Position numbers and translations under genes: made by a program | Notes under the pieces: generated by a model | Told to the model about the DNA's origin: nothing | What the model saw: the letters and a program-made list of their open reading frames with translations, nothing else | The model's database searches: none | DNA from: Octopus vulgaris | Taxonomy: Eukaryota | Reading direction: 5' to 3' | Length of the DNA stretch: 64,000 nt | NCBI GenBank assembly: GCA_951406725.2 | Contig: OX597816.1 | Span: 93,868,001-93,932,000, forward strand | Part shown: one piece after another, positions 9,493-60,871 of the stretch | Numbering within the stretch: position 1 is the first letter of the stretch | Layout: every line of letters begins with the position of its first letter

Positions 9493-10309
9493 AATGGTGT
9501 AAAGAAAAATGAAGATACTGATGTCTTTCTTCCTTTCTTTATGACAGTAAAAAGTGATTTTACTTACTTCAGTCGCTGGATTGCGACCATGCGGGTGTGT
9601 GGTTACAAAAGATTTATTCAATCAAGTCCATTCCATTATTTGACTTTAATTGTGGTACTTATTCTATTGCTTTCTTTTTGTCGGGCTTCTAAGTTTCGAG
9701 TAGGCAAATAAACACAAAGTTTGTCAAACAGTGAGAGACGGACACAAAGGTAAAAATGCGCACATTCATATGTGCATGCTTCCAGCCTCCACATACACAT
9801 ACACACAACACGCACGCACATGCACAGACACACACACATACACATACATACACACAAACACGCAATGCACATATTTGTTTTCTTTACAAAACAAAATGTA
9901 ATATAGAAATGCATTTAGAATTACGTCATTGTGTGACATGAAACGTAGAATTTAATGACAGCTGAGTTAAATCTCTGAGTCAGATACTCTTTGATAAATA
10001 TACATCGACATAAATACGAATTCACATACGCACTCATCCACACACGCACACATGAACTCAGATATAAGAATATATATATATAAATATTCGTCTTTCTTGT
10101 GTACATAAATGTAAAAGTAAATATTTATGTGTATCTTCGTCCAGTTAACTCAGCAATGTGTGTGTGTGTGTGTGTTTGTGTGTGGGCGCGCGCATACACA
10201 CAGATACATGCATTAATACATCTTTTTTTATCTTTACTGCATCCGGGGATTTTTCCTGTATTGCTTCTGGTGAAGTAGCGAATTGAACGTTGCCGCTCTT
10301 CTTTGTGCC

Positions 10310-11415
10310 TCCTGAAGGATCTAAGGATCCAACCTGCCACCTGCCTGCATAGTGTTGCCGTCTGATCAATGTGCACATGGAAAGTTGCGTCATTGCTCAT
10401 GCGGATTCCCAGATCACGCACCGACTCTAACTCTGGGATTACATTGCCTGCTGGTCCAGTGTACTACAACTGTAGTTTGTTTGTAGGCTGATAGCGGAGT
10501 GCTTGAAATTTTGCGCCATTGAACTGCATATTATTTTCATCAGTCCATTTATATATTGCGTTCCAAGTCATTCTGCAGTCTTAGGATGTCAGCAGTGTCC
10601 TTGACTACCTGCGATACTTTTGTATCATCGACGTAGCTGGTCAGTATTGTTCTGTCCGACATTCCTTCAGCTACGTAGCTGAAGGAATGTCGGACAGAAC
10701 AATCACAAACAGTAGTGGTCCCAGTATGTTCCCTGGGGGACTCCACTGAGAATCGGTGTCACTTCAGAAAGAACACCATTTGCTGTGACAACCTGAGTTC
10801 TGTCCTTCGAGAAATCATGCAGCCACTCTCTCAGTCTACCAGCGATACCGAAGTCACGAAATTTGTGACAAACCATACCATGATCGACTTTGTCAAAGGC
10901 CTTGGCAAAGTCGAGGCATATAACATCCACACTTGAATGGCTGAGTTGTTGCTTTAGTACCCAGTCGAAATGCTGTAGTAGTTGTGTTAGGTAGCTCCTT
11001 CCAGGACGGAAACCATGTTGTGTGTCTGTAAGCAAGTCATTTTCCTCAAGGTACGTGGTCAGCCTTTTTCTGACAATGCGTCCCATGATTTTGCTAAGAT
11101 GAGGTCAGAGAGATGGACTTGTAGTTTATAGCATCTGCTCTGCTTCCTGTTTTGTGGACAGAGCAGATTATTCCTTCTTTTAACATTTGAGGAACTCAAG
11201 GGAACTCTGGAAAAGCATTTGCAGTGGTTTGCAGAGCTTTCTCGCATGTTTTAAACAGAATTGCTGAGAGTATATCTGGGCCTATTGCAGAGTTTGAGTT
11301 TATCTCGCCAATGGCCGACAATACATCCTCTTCTGTAATGTTAATGTAACTGATGATCACCTTTTTTCTCTTGTAGGTTAGAGGTGTTGAAGAACTCATC
11401 AGGTCTACTTATTTT
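10310..11415 (-). mobile_element. Non-LTR retrotransposon reverse transcriptase remnant (CR1/L2-group), frameshifted
   Basis: Successive minus-strand ORFs give GPD, QHGFRPGRS, DFAKAFDKVDH, SGVPQG, YVDDTK, LQNDL and RDLGI motifs. Confidence 0.95.
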
Positions 11416-16645: not shown

Positions 16646-17112
16646 AAGCCTTGAAACTCTACTCTCTCCAGCGTCGCCGTGAGCGGTAATTCATTTGTAC
16701 GATGTGGAGAATATACCGCCAACTTTGCCCAAACGACCTGAACATTAGCTTCAAGGTTCATCCAAGACTAGGAACACGGGCCATACGTCCCCTGCCCAAT
16801 TCAAGATCACAGCATACATGTACACTGCAACATAATTTCTTTGCCTCAACAGGCCCTGCCCTATTTAACATTGTCCCAAAAGAGATCAAAGAGGAAAATG
16901 ATCCCATCAACTTTAAACGGAGTCTGGATAGATTCCTTCAAGGAATACCAGATAAGCCACCCATAATTGGATATAACTCACCCAACAAAAACTCACTACT
17001 TGAATGGACCATGAACAAAACTTGACTTAAACAGGGTTCAAATAATCCTATCAGGTTAACTATTAAGTTAGACATGGCCTGGACCAATCTTTGGTCGAAA
17101 CATATCTAAGTT
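16646..17112 (+). mobile_element. 3' end of a CR1/L2-group LINE (ORF2 C-terminus + 3' UTR), 5'-truncated
   Basis: [13 protein letters not shown], then WRIY...GPALFNIVPKEIK...FKRSLDRFLQGIPDKP...NSLLEW, typical of LINE ORF2 C-termini. Confidence 0.88.
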
Positions 17113-24229: not shown

Positions 24230-25060
24230 ACATATACCGTTGTAAAACTCGAGCAACTCTCTCAAACTGCCATCTATCAATCATCTGTCACCATTCATCC
24301 TAAGTTCCATCTTAAAGTCAATGGAACTAGGCGTTATCAACGACCTGTTTTAAGTCTTTAAATATTTTTCTCTTCTCAGTTATCACAAGTAACTTTGCAA
24401 GATCACACCAGTTGTTTCTTGCTCCTGAACTTAATGAAAATATTGTCTTACTCTTGAAATCGACAAAAATTTCGACTCCCTAACACAGTAACCTCCAGGC
24501 TAAACTGCTCGCATACGGCTTCCACCTGTCTTACATCGAGTGTTACCTATCAAACTGCACCATTGCAAAATGCACTGATTCTCTCTATATTACCTTTCAC
24601 TCCCAACTCAATCAGTTTGGGTGTGCAACAACAATCGGTAATGTCTCCCATAAACTTTTTTCTCTGTACATTAATGATCTACATGATGGTACTTAAAGCT
24701 GATTACACTCTTATACAGATGATAATCTACTTCATACCTCCTTAAACCTCAGTACACAGGCGTCACTCACACTTAAGTGAGACACCTCATACAGCGTATG
24801 TATATATTTCTTGTACAATGACCTCAAAAAATCCTCCAATAAGTACATGATAAACTTGTTTCCTTCACAATTACTAAAAGCACCAAAGAAACTGCGTTAC
24901 ACTACACTTTCTTTTTGGGTAAATAATATTCAAATTAATGATATTCAAATCAGCAAGATCGTTTAGATTTCATAATCACTGATAATCACTCGTGGGGACT
25001 TTGATATTAGAAATGGATCACGAAATGTTTGCCAAGGCAAGCTAGACGATCATAAGGTTG
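24230..25060 (+). mobile_element. Highly decayed LINE reverse transcriptase fossil
   Basis: Across frames: EIDKNFDS..AKLLAYG (~DISKAFD..KL.SYG), LGVQQQSVMSP..LYINDL (~GVPQGSVLSP..INDL), HSYTDD (~YADD). Confidence 0.7.
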
Positions 25061-34835: not shown

Positions 34836-35112
34836 TGTGGAGGCCCAGTGATTAGGGCAGCGGACTCGCGGTCGGAGGATCGCGGTTTCGATTCCCAGGC
34901 CGGGCGTTGTGTGTGTTTATTGAGCGAAAACACCTAAAACTCCACGAAGCTTCGGCAGGGGGTGGTGGCGACCCCTGTTGTACTCTTTCGCCCCAACTTT
35001 CTCTCACACTCTTTTCCTGGCGTCCAGTCCAGATAGGGAGGTGGGAACACATACGTCACAGAAACTGGGAAACTGGGCCAATGAGCCTGGCTAGGCTTGA
35101 AAAGGGCGCATA
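34836..35112 (+). mobile_element. tRNA-derived SINE sharing the family C 3' tail
   Basis: GC-rich tRNA-like head (ggcccagtgattaggg...gtttcgattccc) and tail gaaactgggccaatgagcctggctaggcttgaaaagggcgca. Confidence 0.8.
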
Positions 35113-36159
35113 AACAAATAAAAATTGTAAATGGTAGGTAAGCTTGTGTGCAACAGTCTGTTACCTAATACACATATCAATAGAAACAGCTTTCCGCATT
35201 CAGTGAATTTTGGGATACATTTTTGCGTATACATCATCAATAGGGTTGACTTGGCTATCCGAGCCAAATAGGGGACTAAAGTTAAAGTACACACAATATT
35301 TACAGTTTTCGTAACAACTGGCCACATATGTAGATAATTTATGAGTGTATGTTATGTGTCTATGCAATTTTTCTGAAGTTGCGTGAAAGTGCCTTGTAAT
35401 AAATGAACATAAGTATGTAGTAATAACAATAAAGATCCATAGTAAGAGACAGTCAAAATAAATAAATTCAGTTGATGACGAGGTGTTGCCGATGCTACTG
35501 ATGATAATACTGATGACGCTGTGGACAACGACGACAGTGATGACGGCAAACAATTGGGAGTAGAGCTAGAATATAAAACAAGCCGCCGTGACAGCATAAG
35601 TGAGCTAATGAAAAGCTAATTCGCATTCGTTATACTAACATGTGTACAGACATATCGGCAGACGGTCTATTAACAATTTCACTTTGTCTGCTGCTTCGTT
35701 CGTTCTTTTCTCTTTATTCTCTTCTCTTTTTTTTGTTTTTTTTTTTATTTCTTTCGTTCTTATTTTTTCTTTGTTACGTCTATCTTTATATATTTAGACA
35801 TAAAAATAAAGCATCCATTCGAAATACTTCACATAACTAGAGTTTCACCTCCTCCTTCGGACTACATTTTTTCATACCAAACAGATGTTGACTGCAATCG
35901 AACTAATAATGATTATGTTTTCTCGAAAGGAAAGCTATACTGTAGCCTCTGTCCAGTCCGATTCAGGTAAACACAAGTTTACTGAGGCTGGTATTTCATA
36001 AACGACCAACAAAATAAAGACTAGCTACAAAATCTACAGCAGATAACGTTCAAGATCTTCCCAAAACCTTTATCCATCGGAATGAGATGAGTGCAAAGCA
36101 TGAAAGCTGAGTAGCTTATCCCACTTGCAGATGGAGTACTACTACTCCACTCTGTTGTG

Positions 36160-36405
36160 AGGATGTAAACACACCAGCATCTGTTGTCAAACGATGTGGG
36201 GGGGGGGGGAGACAAACACAGACACACAAAATTATACTCATATATACATATACGACGGGCTTCTTTCAGTTTAGGTCTACCAAATCCAATCACAAGGCTT
36301 TGGTCGGCCCCAGGTTATAGTAAAAGACACTTGCTCAAGATGCCCCGTGGTTGGACTAAACCCAGGACCATGTGGCTGGTAAGCAAGCTATTTACCACAC
36401 AGCCA
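36160..36405 (-). mobile_element. SINE family B, partial
   Basis: Reverse complement of the family B 5' two-thirds. Confidence 0.85.
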
Positions 36406-36833
36406 TTTTATATATGTGTGTGCGTGTATGCGTGCGCGCGTGTGTGTCCATGTGTGTGCGTGCATGTGCAAATATACATGTAATGCATACTTGCATCGAC
36501 TTAAAACTGGCCATAAATTTGTGTGCTGAGCAAAAAATACTTCGTGAAATTGATTCGGTCTTGTCACACACCAGCAACAGAGATTCGGTACTCGTTATAA
36601 ATATTCGTTCGTTAAATTTAACAATTACTTTTTGTTTGTAGACTTTAACTAAATCTCCATATTTGTGCATAAAGTATGTAACAAGTATGTACGCGTGTGT
36701 GAGTGTATTTACACGCGCGCATGCGTGTAAGTGTGAATGTGTGTGTGTCTGTGTGACATATATGTACATCCCTATTATTTTGCGATTGATTTGCGTACTT
36801 CATCTGTATACTGGCTAGCCACAAATTTCTTCA

Positions 36834-36902
36834 CAGTTATCCGGCCATCGGAAAAATACTATGAAAAATGACTATAGTATTTTTCCGATGGCCGGATAAC
36901 TG
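36834..36902. repeat. Perfect 29-bp inverted repeat with an 11-nt loop
   Basis: cagttatccggccatcggaaaaatactat / atagtatttttccgatggccggataactg. Confidence 0.97.
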
Positions 36903-36960
36903 AAGAGATGACGACGTGGATTTCCACTTCGGCATCCGAAACTTGAAGTTTTATCATGGC
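36891..36960 (+). ncRNA. Candidate type I hammerhead ribozyme
   Basis: Stem I gataa/ttatc (extendable by gccg/tggc). Core CTGAAGA at 36900-36906. Stem II gatg.cga.gtgga/tccac.tcg.catc. GAAA at 36938-36941, near-palindromic stem III ACTT-G-AAGT, GUU triplet at 36948-36950. Confidence 0.7.
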
Positions 36961-36990
36961 TACCGAATAATTGTCACATATTACATTTAC

Positions 36991-37031
<41 letters not shown>

Positions 37032-37034
37032 GCT

Positions 37035-37182
37035 TGTGTGGTAAGTAGCTTGCTTACTAACCACATGGCTCTGCGTTCAGTCCCACCGCGTGGCATCTTG
37101 AGCAAGTGTATTTTACTATAACCTCGAGTCGACCAAAGCCTTGTGAGTGGATTTCGTAGACGGAAACTGAAAGAAGCCCGTC

Positions 37183-37230
<48 letters not shown>

Positions 37231-37420
37231 GAGTATATGTTTGTGTGTTTGTCCCTCCAACATCGTTTGACAACCGATGCTGGTGTGTTTACATCCTCAT
37301 AACTTACCGGTTCGGCAAAACAGGCCGATAGAATAAGTACTAGGCTTACAAATAATAAGTCCTGTGGTGCTCCAGCGTGGCTGCAATCAAATGACTGAAA
37401 CAAGTAAGAGAATAAAGAAA
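37035..37420 (+). mobile_element. SINE family B
   Basis: Matches 17137-17557, with an internal (TA)n. Confidence 0.9.
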
Positions 37421-37479
37421 AGAATATATATATGCTCACATCCACACACCCTCTCCAACATCTTCACCACACGCACCAG

Positions 37480-37662
37480 TTTCTTTATTACCCACAAGGG
37501 GCTAAACGTAGAGGGGACAAACAAGGACAGACAAACGGATTAAGTCGATTACATCGACACTAGTGCGTAACTGGTACTTAATTTATAGACCCCAAAAGAA
37601 TGAAAGACAAAGTCGACCTCGGCGGAATTTGAACTCAGAACGTAACGGCAGATGAAATACCG
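37480..37662 (-). mobile_element. SINE family A, head truncated
   Basis: Tail-1 plus core on the minus strand. Confidence 0.88.
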
Positions 37663-38459
37663 CACACACACCACACCCCATTATGCACACTCCCACACAC
37701 ACTCATGTGCATATGCATCCACACACACTAGCACCCAATATCTGCCAACGCCCGTGATCTCTATCACACCACCCCTGAACCCTATCCCACCCCTCCTCAC
37801 CCCTATCCTATCTCCCAACGCTTATCTCTCACCACCCCTAGCCCACCTTACACTTCTATGCATTCCCCCGCAGCACACAGTATTCATTCCAAATACACAC
37901 ACAAGGCACAACACGCCTGAACTCAGACATTATACATACAACATGCATAAACACATACAATTTTTGCACAGAAACATAGACAATACACATGTACACTATA
38001 GGGTCACACGCACACATTTACACACGTGCACACACACAAGCTGAACAAGCACACACCAACTACGATACACAAGCGTTTACACACGGACACACACATGCAC
38101 ACACGCACGCACACACATATACACACGTCCATGTGCACACACACATGATAGCCGCACAGATATACATACGTCCATATGCACACACACAACTACACGAAAC
38201 GCACACACTAGGTTACCTGTGCACACACAACACACTCCCATAGACACACACACACAGGCCCATGCATTTGTACACACACATGATAACCTCATAACCTGAA
38301 GAAATGTCCGATGGCTCATGAGTGAACTCAAAAATTTTAAGTCAAGACAATCAGCGTAGTACTCGCTCAAGGTGCTTTTAAGAGTAGTTCTATACTACTA
38401 TGAGAGGCTTGTAGAGATATATTGTCTCCTCTCATTCATTTCGACGTCTTCTTGGTGAG

Positions 38460-39240
38460 AACCACGATGAATGCTCTCGAAGATGGTGTGGTCAAAATTA
38501 GCATCTGAGTGGAAACATTGCAAGCATCAGTTTTGTTGACGACCTTGGATAGACTGGCAGAAAGTGAGAGAGAGAGTGAACTGCTTTTCTTCGTCAGCTG
38601 CTTTGATAGAGCCTCCGTCGAGTTTTGCATGGAAATAATTGTTTTAAAATATCACAAGAAATGCAAGCGGTGTCGACACATGGGACATCTCTGTCCAAAT
38701 ATTAGAAACACGGACAGAAACGAGAGATAGTACAAAATTCAATTTTAAAGGGAATAGTGGAATTAACCAATAGAAGGCCAAAACCAAAAATTCTTGCAAG
38801 AACTGAACGTACAGTGAGTGCTTTAAAAAAACTCGAGCCAACATGGAGAGCTAGAACAAGATCATATTCTTGTGTTACCCTCTATTTTTCTGTATGTATA
38901 CGAAGTATTTACTTTCATAGTAGAGTCACGTAAATAAGAAGTTACAGCAATATGTTAGGCATCTCGAAAATTAACTACATCACATGGTCTGCAAACCCAT
39001 CTGGCACCGCATTAGCTCTCATGAAAAACCTTTCCACAAATTTTCAAAGAACTGTGAAAGGGTCAAGTATAAGAGACAGACAGAGGGGGAAAAAATGGAC
39101 AGATAGTATAGAGGAATGGACAGGAAAATTATTATTGGAGACTCGAACTCTGATACGCAATCACGATATATAGGAAAGACTGGTACACAGCATGGGGCAA
39201 TGGTGTCCTTACGATTCCGTCAGGAGTTAAGGGCTCAAGC
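38460..39240 (+). mobile_element. RTE-clade LINE remnant (RT and C-terminus)
   Basis: Across frames: MNALED..ISI..ISFVDD..LAESE..FDRASVEFCMEI; KPKILART..ALKKLEPTW; SIFLYVYE; LGISK; QRTVKG..RQRGKKWTDSIEEWTG (~RTE QGTVKG.RRRGRQ.KRW.D.I.EWTG). Confidence 0.85.
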
Positions 39241-44311: not shown

Positions 44312-45372
44312 AGGTGCAGATTTGTGTGTTTTATGTATGTATTCTCAAGCATATTCTTGAATATCTAGGCATGCTCATATATATTTAAATGATAAACTTC
44401 TTTTTTTACAGTTCCAGTGATGGATTGGATCTGTAGTCTTCGAATTAGCTTTCTCCTTTCAGGTTTTCAGAAGCCTAATTTCTCAAGATTGGTATTTAGG
44501 CAGTGTGTCCATATCTTAGGGCCCCAATAATTATATGTAAAACCTGAACTTGTAATCCGGATAAAGTTACTGCAGATTTCTCAATAGTTCAGCACAGGTA
44601 ATCCCTTTTTCACTGATCTTTACGTTTATAGCCACTGGGCAACTAATTTCCACAACTGTGCACAGTTTCTCTTCTCTATCCCAAATCATTATATCAGGTC
44701 TGTTGTGCTTACATTTTATTGAGGTTTTCATTGGTACATTCCACCAGTATTATGAGTGGCTAGGGATTCTACCATATTGTGGGTTCTTATTTTTTTTGTC
44801 CTTGGGATTATCCTTCCAATGGATTTCATTACAGTGTGCCCTAGCTACAACGTCATGTCTCATCGATAAATATACCGTGATGACATTTTCGGACAACTGT
44901 TTATGATGTGGGTGACATCTTCAGTGTGAACTCCACAAAGTCTGTATTGGTTGTCACATTTTACGGCTTTTCCCGCGTCTCTATCCCTTTTGTCCATCAG
45001 GTACTTGGTTGATATTTCCTGCTCCTGGATTGCAAACACATACCCTTCAAAGTGGGCGGTAGTAATCCGGCTATTGGTCCATGACAAACTGCTTTGATGA
45101 TCGATGTTACTATTATCACGGAGCTTTCTACTAACATATCCATGCATAGTCTTCTGCTCATACCGGCTCATCCTTTCATCTGATGATACGTTGCGGTTGA
45201 GTCATGCAACTTCTTTGGACATCTATTCTTGATTATCAGACAAAGAGTGTTGCTCAAGGAGCTGCCTTCCAAATCTTATGATGTTATCAGTCTCATGTAT
45301 ACAAACTTGGTTAAGGGATGCACTTCGACACTTGCTGGTTAAACGATGTTGCCGAAGGGATATGATGCAACA
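44312..45372 (-). mobile_element. 5'-truncated restriction-like-endonuclease LINE (3' UTR may extend to ~44165)
   Basis: EGYVFAIQEQEISTKY, decayed CCHC (YRLC..EDVTHIINSC), RHDVVA, HNRPDIMIWD...VEISCP (PD-(D/E)xK nuclease), IIGAL. Bounded by (TATG)n tracts. Confidence 0.92.
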
Positions 45373-53089: not shown

Positions 53090-53650
53090 GTTACTCTACC
53101 TTTCTCACCTGCACCTGCAGCACTGAACACATATTTATATACCTCAACCAGTTCTTTTTACCCTTGGTAGCTGCCTCCATCACATATCTTTGGCAGAAAT
53201 CATACACTCCATCTTTTCAACTCCTTTATTCTACTGGTCACTTCCAGTTATTTTTCCATATAGAATTTAAAACTTTCTGTATTGTTATACCCCAGTATTG
53301 ACAGATCCCTAGCCCCCAAATTGAACTAACGCACTATGTTTCAGTATAGTGCAACCACCAAACTCGTCCTCATTATCAGTAATTCTTTCTTTTTCCAGAA
53401 ATTTCTAGTGACAGTTCTCTGGCGTGGTCACTTGTACCATGATGGGGATCAACTTTATCAGCGAATTTGTTAGCTACTCTTCAGGTTCAGATTTTCCACA
53501 CATTTCATCAGCTCTTCACATGAGCTATATGCTCGTTATATTGACGACTGCATCGGCGCCACCGCCTTTAATTACCAGCAGCTCACTTCCTTCATTTCCT
53601 TCGTTAACTCCTTCCACTCTATCAGGGAAATCACATCTATCAATTTCATC
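53090..53650 (+). mobile_element. Penelope-like reverse transcriptase fragment
   Basis: TCSTEHIFIYL (~CSCPTELIS.YLD), GVVTCTMMGINF..FVSY (~GVAMGT.MGP.YA.LFVGY), ELYARYIDDCIGA...FISFVNSFH. Confidence 0.85.
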
Positions 53651-54294
53651 ACATCTGTCAACTTCTTTGAAAACCAGAAGTTGGGCGAAGCAGTGCAGAA
53701 CTCGGGTTAAGTGAGATCACAACAAGACAATTGAGGAAGACTGCTGAAGCTTTGTGGGGCGATAACTCTGCAAAGCAATGAGTGGGTTTGGAATCATTCA
53801 TGCAACAAAGCAAATGAGGTGGAGTAAGATACATTACTAAAGTCACAGACAAAGTTACTAAGGGACTTTGGATAAAGAAGGCTGGCCCATGGCATTTTCG
53901 TGAATGGATGCAAACTGTGAGTTGATCAACCTCTGCTAAAATAAGTACTACAAGGGCATTACTAATGATTCATCTTAGAGCATCTCTGTGAGATGCATAT
54001 TGAAAACACACGCGTAAATACACACACGCTCACACACACACATAATTAACGAGAGAGACAGAAGATAGAATATTTGGGAATCTTTATTAATCATTACAAT
54101 GGTTTCAACCCATCTAGCATATAAGTCCATTGTCCTGCTTTCGTCTTCGATCTCATTGTTTGTTTACATCTGACGACTCGAATACGAAACGTCTTACAAA
54201 ATCAGTACTGGCTATAATTTGTATAGGATATATGCAGAGATAACCTTAACATGCATATCGAAGTATATTAAAAACGACTGATATACTTTATAGT

Positions 54295-56985: not shown

Positions 56986-57859
56986 ACACCAACAATGTAC
57001 AACACTCAAAGTATCTTTTGCAACTTTGTCCCATTTTTGACAGAGTATTTTCAGGATAATTTTAAAGGCTTGAAAATTATCAGTGCTGTCCTGCTTCTTA
57101 TTATTAAGTGTTCTTCGAGGATCGCAACCGCTAATAGAGTTTTAGTACCAGATGTGTTGATGTGGTATCATTTAAAAAGCTGCCACGAATAGCTAATATT
57201 TTTCGATTGATCGACTTTTTTGATCTTCCCGTTTATACAGGGTTTTTTTTCGGTGGGGCGTTCAGTATATTGAACTCATAACATTTAATTCTAAAACAGG
57301 ATTCAATACTTTTATCTATAATACAACAGTGTCATGTTATTAAAGAACAAAGAAATGAGAACATAGAAAAATAGAAAATGAAACATTGTTTAATAGTATA
57401 AATGTTTAAAGACATATAACCATCGAACAATGAAGTTGAAGTTAGACAAAATATATAAGGTCATGTCAATAAATGATCGGTACTAGATGATGAGCCTATA
57501 TTTTGTAATTTGACTATTTTTATACCGCTTCTATGAAGCTGCTTATTGTTTATTTTTATTTTGTGTGCATTTTAAATGGTATTTGTTGCATTCCTGGTTC
57601 AGCCATATCATCAGTGAAAATGAGTCCTACAGAGTTTTGAATGAATGAAAAATACTTGTTACCCTGTAAGAGTCCATATCATGGAATCAGTATTTGTGAC
57701 GGTATTTGTGTTTCATAAGTCTATGAAGAAAAGGGCTGTGGCTTTCATTCTTGTTGTCGCAGGGTCCAAATTTACATATGCTTTGGCATGCTATCAGTTT
57801 ACTTTAAAGCGTTTTTATTTGTCTGAGCTGATAGATTTGTTGTCAAAGTAGAACTTTGC

Positions 57860-58263
57860 TGCTGCTGCTGCTGAATATCAGCCTGTTGGAAATGCTCCTG
57901 ACGCCCTGAAATAAGTGTTTGATGAAATGAGATCGGATAAGATAAAGATTTTGTGGTTCAATCACGTGGGTAGCAAGCTCCATAATTGAACAATGCTGCT
58001 GCTGCTGAATATCAGCCTGTTGGAAATGCTCCTGACGCCCTGAAATAAGTGTTTGATGAAATGAGATCGGATAAGATAAAGATTTTGTGGTTCAATCACG
58101 TGGGTAGCAAGCTCCATAATTGAACAATGCTGCTGCTGCTGAATATCAGCCTGTTGGAAATGCTCCTGACGCCCTGAAATAAGTGTTTGATGAAATGAGA
58201 TCGGATAAGATAAAGATTTTGTGGTTCAATCACGTGGGTAGCAAGCTCCATAATTGAACAATG
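57860..58263. repeat. Three apparently identical 134-bp tandem units
   Basis: gaatatcagcctgttggaaatgctcc begins at 57873, 58007 and 58141. Confidence 0.97.
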
Positions 58264-58675: not shown

Positions 58676-60871
58676 CAGTGGTTCTCAGCCGGGGGCGAAA
58701 ATCAAATTTTGGGGGGCGATGAATACAGTCTTCAATTGGCGACTGTACTCACAACAAGCAATCCCGCATCCAGTGCATCATAACAACAAGGGCTCTTCGC
58801 AATAACTGCGGTCAAGACGTAAAAACAACACTTTTTCTTAATTCAAATACTGTAACTATGTCCCTCAATAAGTGCGGTATCTTCCAGGATTTAGTTCATC
58901 GATTTATAATGACTCATTCATCACTGAATTTCTAACCCTTGTTATTATGACACTGGCCTCCAGATTGCGTGATTCATCGATGAGTACTTACAATATGGTT
59001 TTATCAAGAACTCTACAGACCCAAAGCAGCCCTTCTGTATCATGTGTCATCAATCTTTGTCCAATGAAGCCATAAAGCCTTCTCGACTCTCTGACCACAT
59101 GAGAAGAAAACACCCCGAAAAATTCGGTAAGCCTATCAAATATTTTGAGGGATTGAAAACTGATTTTGAAAATCGGAGTACTGTTAAATCGTTATTCAAG
59201 AAACAGACAAAAATTAATGACGCTGGACTGATTGCTTCCCACAAAATTTCAGAAATTACTGCAGAAACAGGTAGTGCACATACGGTAGCTGAAAAGATTA
59301 TTGTACCTCCAGTAGAAGCAGTAATATCAGAAATCCGTAAGAGAATTGATGACATATCAAGTCATATCGAAGACGTACTAATTCAAAGATTGAAAACAAC
59401 GAATTTTTCTATTCAAACTAACGAAAGCACAGTTATTGACAATAAGGCTTTTTTAATGGGATATGTACAATATTTTGATAGAAACTGCGCATTACAAGAA
59501 GATTTATTATTTCTATAACTGACTGACACAACGGGCACTTCTATATTTTCTGCAGTGAAAACATTTTTTGAAGAAAAATAAATTCCATATTATGAAAATT
59601 TAGTTTCACGTGCTACTGATAGTACAATATCTATGGTTTGGAGACATAAAGGATTTATCTCTCATTTAAAAAAGTTGTGCCCCCTCCCCAATTCTAGTCA
59701 TACACTGTGAGCTACACAGGCATAAACTCGTGGCCAAAAATATAAGTCCTATTCTAAATCAGTCATTGAGCACTGTTATGAAAGCAATAAGCAAAAACCT
59801 AACAGTAAATGTGACCGTCGTTTTCGAAAATTTTGTGTCGATGCTGACGAACAATATACAAAACTTCTCTTGCATACCGATGTCCGTTGGCTATCCAAAG
59901 GCAACTGCTTGGAAATATTTCAAAACCTATTTAGTACACTAGTTGCATTCTTACGAACAGAAGGACACTCAGACTTAGCCGCCGAAATTCAAGCTCAAAA
60001 GAACATACACTATCTTAGTTGGATTTTCCGTAAGCTGAATGAGGTCTCTCTTCTGCTGCAGAGAAAAATGATAACGCTGACAGACTGTAAACGGGTGATG
60101 AGAGTTTTTGTTGAAAAACTCGATCTTTTTCAAGTTAATTTGAAATTAAGAGTTTTATAATATGCCCGAACTAGCGGAAATCGACTTACGTGAAAATGAG
60201 ATTGGTATCTATTGCGACCATCTGCCCGCCTTAAAAATGATTTAGAAACCAGATTGCCGATTTATTTAACTTCACTATTTAGCCATGGAGGATGGCCCAT
60301 TCGATTGTGATCCTCACAGTGCATGCGAAAATATCCAGGAAGAAATCATCGAGATGAAATGTAACGATGAATTTCAAATCAAGTTAAAAAAAAAAAAAAG
60401 ATTGTTTGAATTTTGGCAATCAGACACTGTAAAATCACTATAGCCAAATCTGTGGTCACAAATGTCGAAAATCCTTTTGCGTTCACGACATCATATCTTA
60501 TCGAAACTGAATTTAGTACTGTCAATCACATTTTGCGGAAGGAAAGAAACAGATTTGACATTATTTCACGTGAAGATATTCGTATCTTTTTGAGTAGCAT
60601 TAAGCCTGACATTGAAATTTTAGCAGAACATCACCACTATTAGGGCTCACACCAATTAGTCCTTTTCTAGATTCAAATTTAGAATAAGGTTTTATTTTAA
60701 TTCTTTTTTTTTTCTTTTATATTTACATGTACAAACTTTTTTTAGTGTTGATTAGCTGTAATTACGTTATATTTAATATTTGTTATCATTTTTTGGTGGG
60801 TGATTATCAATTAGCTTACGTCAAGAATAGCATTTAGGGGGCGATGGCCGGGAAAAGGTTGAGAACTACTG
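58676..60871 (+). mobile_element. Full-length hAT transposon of the Buster/Charlie family with a pseudogenised transposase
   Basis: 15-bp TIRs cagtggttctcagcc / ggttgagaactactg. Perfect 8-bp TSD CTCTAGAT at 58668-58675 and 60872-60879. Transposase motifs: BED finger C..C..LSNEAIKPSRL..H...H, FSIQTNES, HC..HR, DVRWLSKG, FTTSYLIETEFS. Confidence 0.96.

What the first reader, a model, noticed from the sequence alone, without database searches (positions are those of the whole stretch)
36834..36960. Hammerhead ribozyme overlapping a perfect 29-bp hairpin: a ~130-bp mini-element with two competing folds
Seen: a complete type I hammerhead topology. Stem I is gataa/ttatc and flanks CTGAAGA. Stem II is a long near-palindrome with one extra C before GAAA, probably from a lost G. 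Then come GAAA, stem III ACTT-G-AAGT and a GUU site. The 5' strand of stem I and the first core bases are also the right arm of a perfect 29-bp inverted repeat. Established: Penelope-like elements carry minimal type I hammerheads with palindromic stem III in their pLTRs and often leave inverted, 5'-truncated pLTR junctions. Inference: this is a solo non-autonomous Penelope/retrozyme-like unit in which the upstream hairpin would sequester stem I and switch cleavage off in read-through transcripts.
Basis: partly seen in the sequence, partly recalled or inferred. Interest (0 to 1): 0.72.

Follow-up and report, generated by a model that had tools for sequence, protein, structure and literature searches.

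The report
Penelope retroelement end-stub with hammerhead
This is one of thousands of cut-short ends of a Penelope-like jumping gene in this genome; it carries that group's usual hammerhead motif, predicted to cut RNA, and the hairpin beside it is likely the worn remnant of a common back-to-back insertion rather than an evolved on/off switch.

Summary
The sequence is as described: an exact 29-bp inverted repeat (36834-36862 / 36874-36902) overlapping a type I hammerhead motif, predicted cut after 36950. It is not a solo mini-element. The motif has 1,903 exact genomic matches (control 0) and belongs to the pLTR of a ~3.1-3.3 kb Penelope-like element whose ORF carries the Hydra-clade motifs (RWK, DKT, CxCX5C, C-terminal endonuclease). 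The 4-bp palindromic stem III with a 1-nt loop and the GUU site are usual in the published Hydra table. The extra C is family-wide, not a lost G. In 61 position-picked loci, 27 have an abutting inverted partner, all with different junctions; 15 partners cover the whole ribozyme, one is a short hairpin like this. The left arm here was likely shortened later. Sequestration is predicted by folding but looks like a by-product. Secondary results: partners pair one short with one long 3' end (20 of 20), share rare variants, and 5' ends are fivefold denser just upstream of the hammerhead. A cap/initiator idea was not supported. The layout is published, and this scan noted this kind before in this and other genomes. 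Low interest.

The parts
36834..36872 (-). Left arm: inverted, 5'-truncated pLTR copy (element positions -36 to +2 relative to hammerhead C3); outer part missing, likely deleted after insertion
   Evidence: BLAST to a natural pLTR copy, 37 of 39 identical; junction mapping; the flank to its left is single-copy; no rest of the arm elsewhere in the window
36873..36873 (.). Head-to-head junction, one spacer base
   Evidence: locus L001
36874..36995 (+). Right arm: 5'-truncated pLTR copy (positions -26 to about +95), ending at the family's short 3' end
   Evidence: 95% identical to L031 over 126 bases; 3' end classes
36834..36902 (.). Exact 29-bp inverted repeat formed by the overlapping parts of the two arms
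36889..36962 (+). Type I hammerhead motif with extended stem I; core 36900-36906 and 36938-36941; predicted cut 3' of 36950
   Evidence: sequence; column counts; constrained folds; clade table File S2 of PMC8557442
36994..37030 (.). (TA)n run at the 3' end of the right arm, likely the insertion target
   Evidence: TA runs at copy ends

Best explanation
The stretch is a head-to-head pair of 5'-truncated pLTR fragments of a high-copy Penelope-like retrotransposon with Hydra-clade motifs; the right fragment keeps an intact hammerhead motif, and the 29-bp hairpin is likely what remains of the inverted partner after its outer part was lost. Shown: the same DNA sits about 265 bases upstream of the ORF start and also downstream of the ORF in long copies; short copies end at two fixed 3' sites about 67 bases apart at TA runs; inverted partners are common and their junctions differ. 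Inferred mechanism: the element's endonuclease cuts a TA run, its reverse transcriptase likely starts twice on pLTR RNA, once at each of the two internal sites, and the two short cDNAs join head to head. The RNA was probably copied uncut, since copies run through the cleavage site. The hammerhead would act in the parent element's RNA, probably weakly and as a dimer or with the element's protein; in this copy it is probably a passive relic, and any read-through from the left is predicted to fold it shut.
For: 2241 first-look candidates for the stretch; 1,903 exact matches to a 25-letter core-and-stem pattern, reversed control 0. Hammerhead upstream of the ATG in L077, L109, L112, L113 and downstream of the ORF in L108, L110, L111; inverted copy upstream in L077, L108, L109, L111. 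ORF motifs RWK, DKT, CSCRDKNxC, IIYEA..KKYVG, CxxC, CxH match the Hydra definition (PMC8557442). Published Hydra hammerheads have the same build, e.g. actc-g-gagt and actt-n-aagt stem III and U at the cut site (File S2). Position-picked sample of 61 loci: 30 with an inverted partner, 27 abutting, 27 distinct junctions, 15 covering the whole hammerhead, 1 short hairpin. Score-picked sample: 90 junction types in 92 pairs. Short+long pairing in 20 of 20 classifiable abutting pairs (7 unclassifiable) and 41 of 47 (P 5e-8). Partners share 31 rare non-CpG variants against 3.2 +/- 1.8 in 2000 permutations, 67 pairs. At most 1 of 29 copies found with a query starting at the cut site begins near it. 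Head-to-head inverted pLTRs with a one-sided tail are described (PMC3846280; PMC8557442); two internal RT starts, both strands extended and uncut RNA used in vitro (PMC11167929).
Against: No intact ORF was seen; clade placement rests on motifs and a by-eye comparison with Hydra-1_Obim, not on a tree. Pfam gave no RT or endonuclease hit for 4 fragments; the Atlas gave only leads (RVT_1 at 0.87-0.88). Rfam gave no hammerhead. Loss of the left arm by deletion is inferred: an empty site or orthologue was not seen. Shared variants between arms could also come from later gene conversion. This copy has 5 changes in the hammerhead and none breaks a core base or pair (chance about 0.09), which leaves a little room for selection on it.
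Confidence: 0.9

Rival explanations
1. One reading: a self-contained ~130-bp non-autonomous (retrozyme-like) unit whose upstream hairpin evolved as an off-switch for the ribozyme in read-through transcripts.
For: Folding predicts complete sequestration of stem I when the left arm is present. Other hammerhead families of this genome also have inverted partners close upstream of the core (7 of 30 loci had an inverted hit, two of them the same pair).
Against: No fixed unit: all 27 abutting junctions differ, 31 of 61 loci have no partner, 11 of 27 partners do not cover stem I. The short-hairpin form is 1 of 27. A coding parent exists. Among the first 100 listed exact matches there is no run of same-strand neighbours at a fixed short spacing, whereas non-LTR retrozymes are defined as tandem arrays (bioRxiv 10.64898/2026.07.22.740005).
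Confidence: 0.04
2. A palindromic DNA transposon (MITE or foldback) with terminal inverted repeats that inserts at TA.
For: Many copies look like 300-400 bp palindromes between TA runs.
Against: The two ends are unequal (short with long), centres differ in every copy, and the arm sequence continues into an RT-endonuclease ORF.
Confidence: 0.02
3. This particular copy has been kept as a working ribozyme in a host transcript (domesticated), with the hairpin tuning it.
For: Five substitutions, all structure-neutral, including the C-G to U-A change in stem III; 1 of 21 arms with five changes is strictly intact, and it is this one.
Against: Chance of that is about 0.09; the same stem III change is in 2 of 194 arms against about 1.2 expected from the single changes; the sample was found with this copy as query. 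No host exon was recognised by eye among 170 long reading frames of the window. With the left arm present the fold is predicted closed.
Confidence: 0.04

Closest known systems
Hydra clade of C-terminal EN+ Penelope-like elements, especially Hydra-1_Obim (Craig et al. 2021, PMC8557442; passages and supplement parts read)
   Same: RWK, DKT, CxCX5C linker, CxxC and CxH near the endonuclease end, (TA)n targets, type I hammerhead with 4-bp palindromic stem III, 1-nt loop, U or A at the cut site; long runs of like protein sequence to Hydra-1_Obim by eye.
   Different: A different family: hammerhead stems differ from Hydra-1_Obim's (whose motif occurs separately in this genome, L164); unit about 3.1-3.3 kb with a long 3' UTR (published ones mostly under 3 kb); one unpaired base on the 3' side of stem II only, a layout not among the rows of File S2; tail about 67 bases against 30-40 described.
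Inverted-pLTR insertions with one-sided tail of EN+ PLEs (Arkhipova et al. 2013, PMC3846280, passages; PMC8557442 Fig. 2 legend)
   Same: Head-to-head inverted, 5'-truncated pLTR copy, palindrome at the junction, tail at one end only.
   Different: Here mostly ORF-less stubs, in thousands; in this window the partner is cut down to 39 bases.
Minimal PLE hammerheads (Cervera and De la Pena 2014, PMC4209133, parts 1-2 of 4 read)
   Same: Type I, long stem II, palindromic unstable stem III, mostly single dispersed copies, pairs on opposite strands noted; low activity in vitro, dimer-dependent.
   Different: Stem III is 4 bp rather than absent or 1-2 bp; the extra base is 3' of stem II, not between positions 9 and 10.1.
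Poseidon_Ac in vitro system (Frangieh et al. 2024, PMC11167929, parts 1-2 of 4 read)
   Same: Two internal RT starts that define the tail; AT-rich target; both strands extended; hammerhead cleavage not needed.
   Different: Different clade; there the starts lie inside the ORF, here about 170 and 105 bases before the ATG.
Non-LTR retrozymes (bioRxiv 10.64898/2026.07.22.740005, part 1 of 5 read)
   Same: Non-coding, type I hammerhead, related to PLE pLTRs.
   Different: Retrozymes are tandem arrays with a hammerhead per unit; this is dispersed, variably truncated and head to head.

Membership tests
Hydra-clade PLE | RWK motif near the N-terminus | tested here: met
   RWKAF in L108, L109, L111, L112, L113; RWEAF in L077; pattern not hit in L110 scan but RWKTF in the overlapping L087
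Hydra-clade PLE | DKG motif changed to DKT | tested here: met
   DKTKNLY in L077, L109, L110 of 7 loci scanned
Hydra-clade PLE | CxCX5C linker before a C-terminal GIY-YIG endonuclease | tested here: met
   CSCRDKNVC (L111), CSCRDKNLC (L109), CSCRDKSLC (L108); decayed in L110, L112; followed by IIYEA..KKYVG. Endonuclease identity is by motif, Pfam silent
Hydra-clade PLE | CCHH motif absent; CxxC and CxH near the C-terminus | tested here: met
   No cysteine pair between the IIY and YVG motifs in 5 copies read; KCxLC and SCPH present, read by eye
Hydra-clade PLE | Insertion into (TA)n | tested here: met
   TA runs at copy ends in most loci printed and at 36994-37030
Hydra-clade PLE | Canonical hammerhead in the pLTR | tested here: met
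   Core columns 94-98% conserved, stems I and III paired in 93-98% of 194 arms
Hydra-clade PLE | RT phylogeny groups with Hydra elements | not tested
   No tree built; published sequences were only read in the supplement
Type I hammerhead ribozyme | Core C3U4G5A6NG8A9 / G12A13A14, A15.1-U16.1, NUH triplet, three stems | tested here: met
   one extra C next to G12
Type I hammerhead ribozyme | Match to an Rfam hammerhead model | tested here: not met
   None at E up to 10 in 35000-39000
Type I hammerhead ribozyme | Covariation in stems | tested here: inconclusive
   Within the family double changes are 0-8 of 194 per pair and core divergence (3.2%) equals stem I (2.6%) and stem III (3.2%): neutral decay. 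Subfamily changes fall in the loop, wobble and mismatch positions of stem II. Across families: stem I of 4 bp or more in 6 of 30 other motifs against 1.1 in shuffles (max 5), stem III 4 of 4 in 17 of 30, partly imposed by the pattern; published Hydra rows pair with different letters
Type I hammerhead ribozyme | Self-cleavage | not testable with these tools
   Needs transcription in vitro
Non-LTR retrozyme | Tandem head-to-tail units each with a hammerhead | tested here: not met
   Single copy in the window; no array among the first 100 of 1,903 listed matches; the other 1,803 not seen
Non-LTR retrozyme | Circular RNA produced | not testable with these tools
   Only assembled contigs were available

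The most novel reading that the evidence does not exclude
Every inverted PLE insertion is made by two primings, one at each of two fixed RNA sites and one on each strand of the cut TA run, from one uncut RNA template; the hammerhead fold acts there less as scissors than as a landmark just past which copying stops or jumps, which would explain the short-with-long rule and the fivefold pile-up of 5' ends in the 40 bases upstream of the core.
Probability: 0.3. Interest if true: 0.5.

Novelty: new member of a known kind. Interest (0 to 1): 0.2.

Why it matters
The copy itself matters little: it is one decayed stub among thousands. The family is a usable natural data set for an open question, how Penelope-like elements make inverted insertions and what their hammerheads do. 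The counts here (short with long in 20 of 20, shared variants between arms, 5' ends crowded just upstream of the ribozyme, almost no ends at the cut site) give numbers that an in vitro PLE system could be tested against.

Tried and rejected
Cap-G / initiator idea: in pooled loci 12 of 17 arms starting at -33 were preceded by G, beside an initiator-like TCATTT (consensus recalled). A genome-wide count gave G:A 6:5 at -33 against 1:11 or 1:5 at a control start once six hits of one duplicated region were counted as one and likely A-insertions set aside, Fisher P 0.03-0.30; the first sample was biased by the query's own junction letters. Not supported. The sharp -33..-31 mode in the score-picked sample is the same bias; only the position-picked sample is used for 5' ends. 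A 3' splice site at -23 was considered and dropped, since many copies run across it. Twin hairpins behind the two 3' ends (lead from earlier findings): a 2-nt-bulge hairpin is predicted behind each in the family majority, about 8 and 20 bases behind, but four natural segments had z of -1.3 to 1.3, two of them not spanning the hairpin: inconclusive. Expression: no RNA holder listed; contigs of four runs covered only the repeat, none the unique flank: no evidence either way. Rfam, Pfam: nothing. The search of earlier findings by sequence: nothing. Literature searches showed no paper on this family or on a hairpin switch; subscription papers are not in the library and supplements of the bioRxiv preprint were not seen, so this is not proof of absence. 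PMC6962438 (two passages) only counts 235 hammerhead loci in squid.

Full report
Observation. The inverted repeat is exact over 29 bp, 36834-36862 against 36874-36902, with 11 bases between; no shuffle of 200 folds as well. Rfam does not detect it at E up to 10. Positions below count from C3 of the core (36900 = 0).

It is a repeat. A search of the own genome gave 2241 first-look candidates; an exact 25-letter pattern spanning stem I, core and the foot of stem II has 1,903 matches, the reversed control none. Only 78 of 194 aligned arms match that pattern exactly, so the family is probably several thousand arms strong (inference). Contigs of public runs labelled as three organisms carry the family with the majority letters. 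The host is likely an octopus: a motif and flank close to the published Hydra-1_Obim occur in this genome, and the flanking SINEs look like octopus repeats (recalled).

The parent. In L031 the repeat continues past its usual 3' end into an ORF. Searching with that part and extending seven loci showed the hammerhead about 265 bases before the ATG in L077, L109, L112, L113 and downstream of the ORF in L108, L110, L111, giving a unit of about 3.1-3.3 kb. All copies read are broken by stops or frameshifts. They carry RWK, DKT, a CxCX5C linker, a C-terminal IIYEA..KKYVG endonuclease-like part without a cysteine pair inside, then CxxC and CxH: the features that PMC8557442 lists for the Hydra clade (passages). 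The protein resembles Hydra-1_Obim by eye but is a different family. Pfam found nothing relevant in 4 fragments; the Atlas gave RT leads under 0.9. No tree was built.

The ribozyme. File S2 of that paper shows that 4-bp palindromic stem III with a 1-nt loop, U at the cut site, and extra or mismatched bases at the foot of stem II are ordinary in this clade. The linked subfamily differences sit in the loop, wobble and mismatch positions of stem II and outside the motif, compatible with selection in the active lineage. The extra C is the family state. 48 of 194 arms are strictly intact, this one among them despite five changes (chance about 0.09). A looser pattern finds 786 motifs of other families against 49 in the control. 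As a monomer the hammerhead fold has an ensemble probability near 0.003; the dimer form scores -50.4 kcal/mol against -40.2 for two monomer hammerheads and -53.3 for the best dimer fold, in line with the weak, dimer-dependent activity reported for PLE hammerheads (PMC4209133, parts 1-2). These are predictions without tertiary contacts.

The hairpin. To avoid score bias I took the loci of the first 65 listed matches on contig C1 (61 loci). 30 have an inverted partner; three with 62-306 bases between were dropped, leaving 27 abutting. All 27 junctions differ; 16 partners cover the 5' strand of stem I, 15 the whole motif, one (L247) is a short hairpin as in the window. In the score-picked set 92 pairs gave 90 junction types. 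Copies end at two 3' sites, near +95 and +162, both at TA runs; partners are one short and one long in 20 of 20 classifiable pairs (7 others have an odd end) and 41 of 47 in the other set. Arms of one insertion share 31 rare non-CpG variants against 3.2 expected (67 pairs), so they come from one template lineage or were converted later. In the window the right arm has the short end; the left arm stops at +2 beside single-copy DNA with no TA run, so it was likely a long arm that lost its outer part. With it, the hammerhead fold is predicted shut (4e-13), as it would be in most intact pairs: a consequence of geometry.

Mechanism. Shown: link to the ORF, two 3' ends, variable 5' ends, short-with-long pairing. 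From the literature: inverted head-to-head pLTRs with a one-sided tail (PMC3846280 passages; PMC8557442); two internal RT starts, extension of both strands, and uncut RNA as the main substrate in vitro (PMC11167929 parts 1-2). Inferred: two primings per insertion and head-to-head joining. PMC3846280 proposes self-priming on an antisense template instead; my data do not exclude it. At most 1 of 29 copies found with a query starting at +50 begins near the cut site. 5' ends are five times denser per base in -6 to -44 than in -45 to -284 (30 ends in 1708 bases at risk against 15 in 4298, P 1e-7; solos alone P 5e-4). The cause is open: fall-off after the structure, A/T-run microhomology, or a transcript start. 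The cap-G test for the last was not supported.

Verdict. Real motif, right superfamily, wrong unit. A new family of a known clade in a known insertion layout; earlier notes of this scan describe the same kind in this and other genomes. Interest 0.2.

Noticed in passing
G000, loci L164-L193: At least six further hammerhead families of the same build, one close to Hydra-1_Obim; L184/L185 and L188 show head-to-head junctions about 15-25 bases upstream of the core, as in this family.
   Followed up: partly
family positions +93 to +104 and +160 to +172 (e.g. L031, L084): Both 3' end sites are followed by nearly the same word, TAAATT(A)CCTC, then by a predicted hairpin with a 2-base bulge; a candidate RT start signal.
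   Followed up: partly
window 36154-36415 and 37021-37303: Two SINE-like repeats in opposite orientation (85-92% complementary) flank the element about 600 bases apart; read-through RNA could form a long duplex.
   Followed up: no
window 53474-53707 (+): Reading frame with ARYIDDCIGAT..FVNSFH, like the RT of another PLE clade (compare the Neptune-side rows).
   Followed up: no
window 58973-60640 (+): Broken hAT-like transposase remnant (label recalled from the translation).
   Followed up: no
window 10128-11408 (-), 16690-17022 (+), 24484-24693 (+), 44863-45201 (-): Fragments of non-LTR retrotransposon reading frames (labels recalled).
   Followed up: no
window 57846-58225: Tandem duplication of about 119-134 bases seen as two near-identical reading frames.
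   Followed up: no
G000:C23:42.30-42.60 Mb: Six hits of one junction variant, some 29 bases apart: a locally duplicated region.
   Followed up: no
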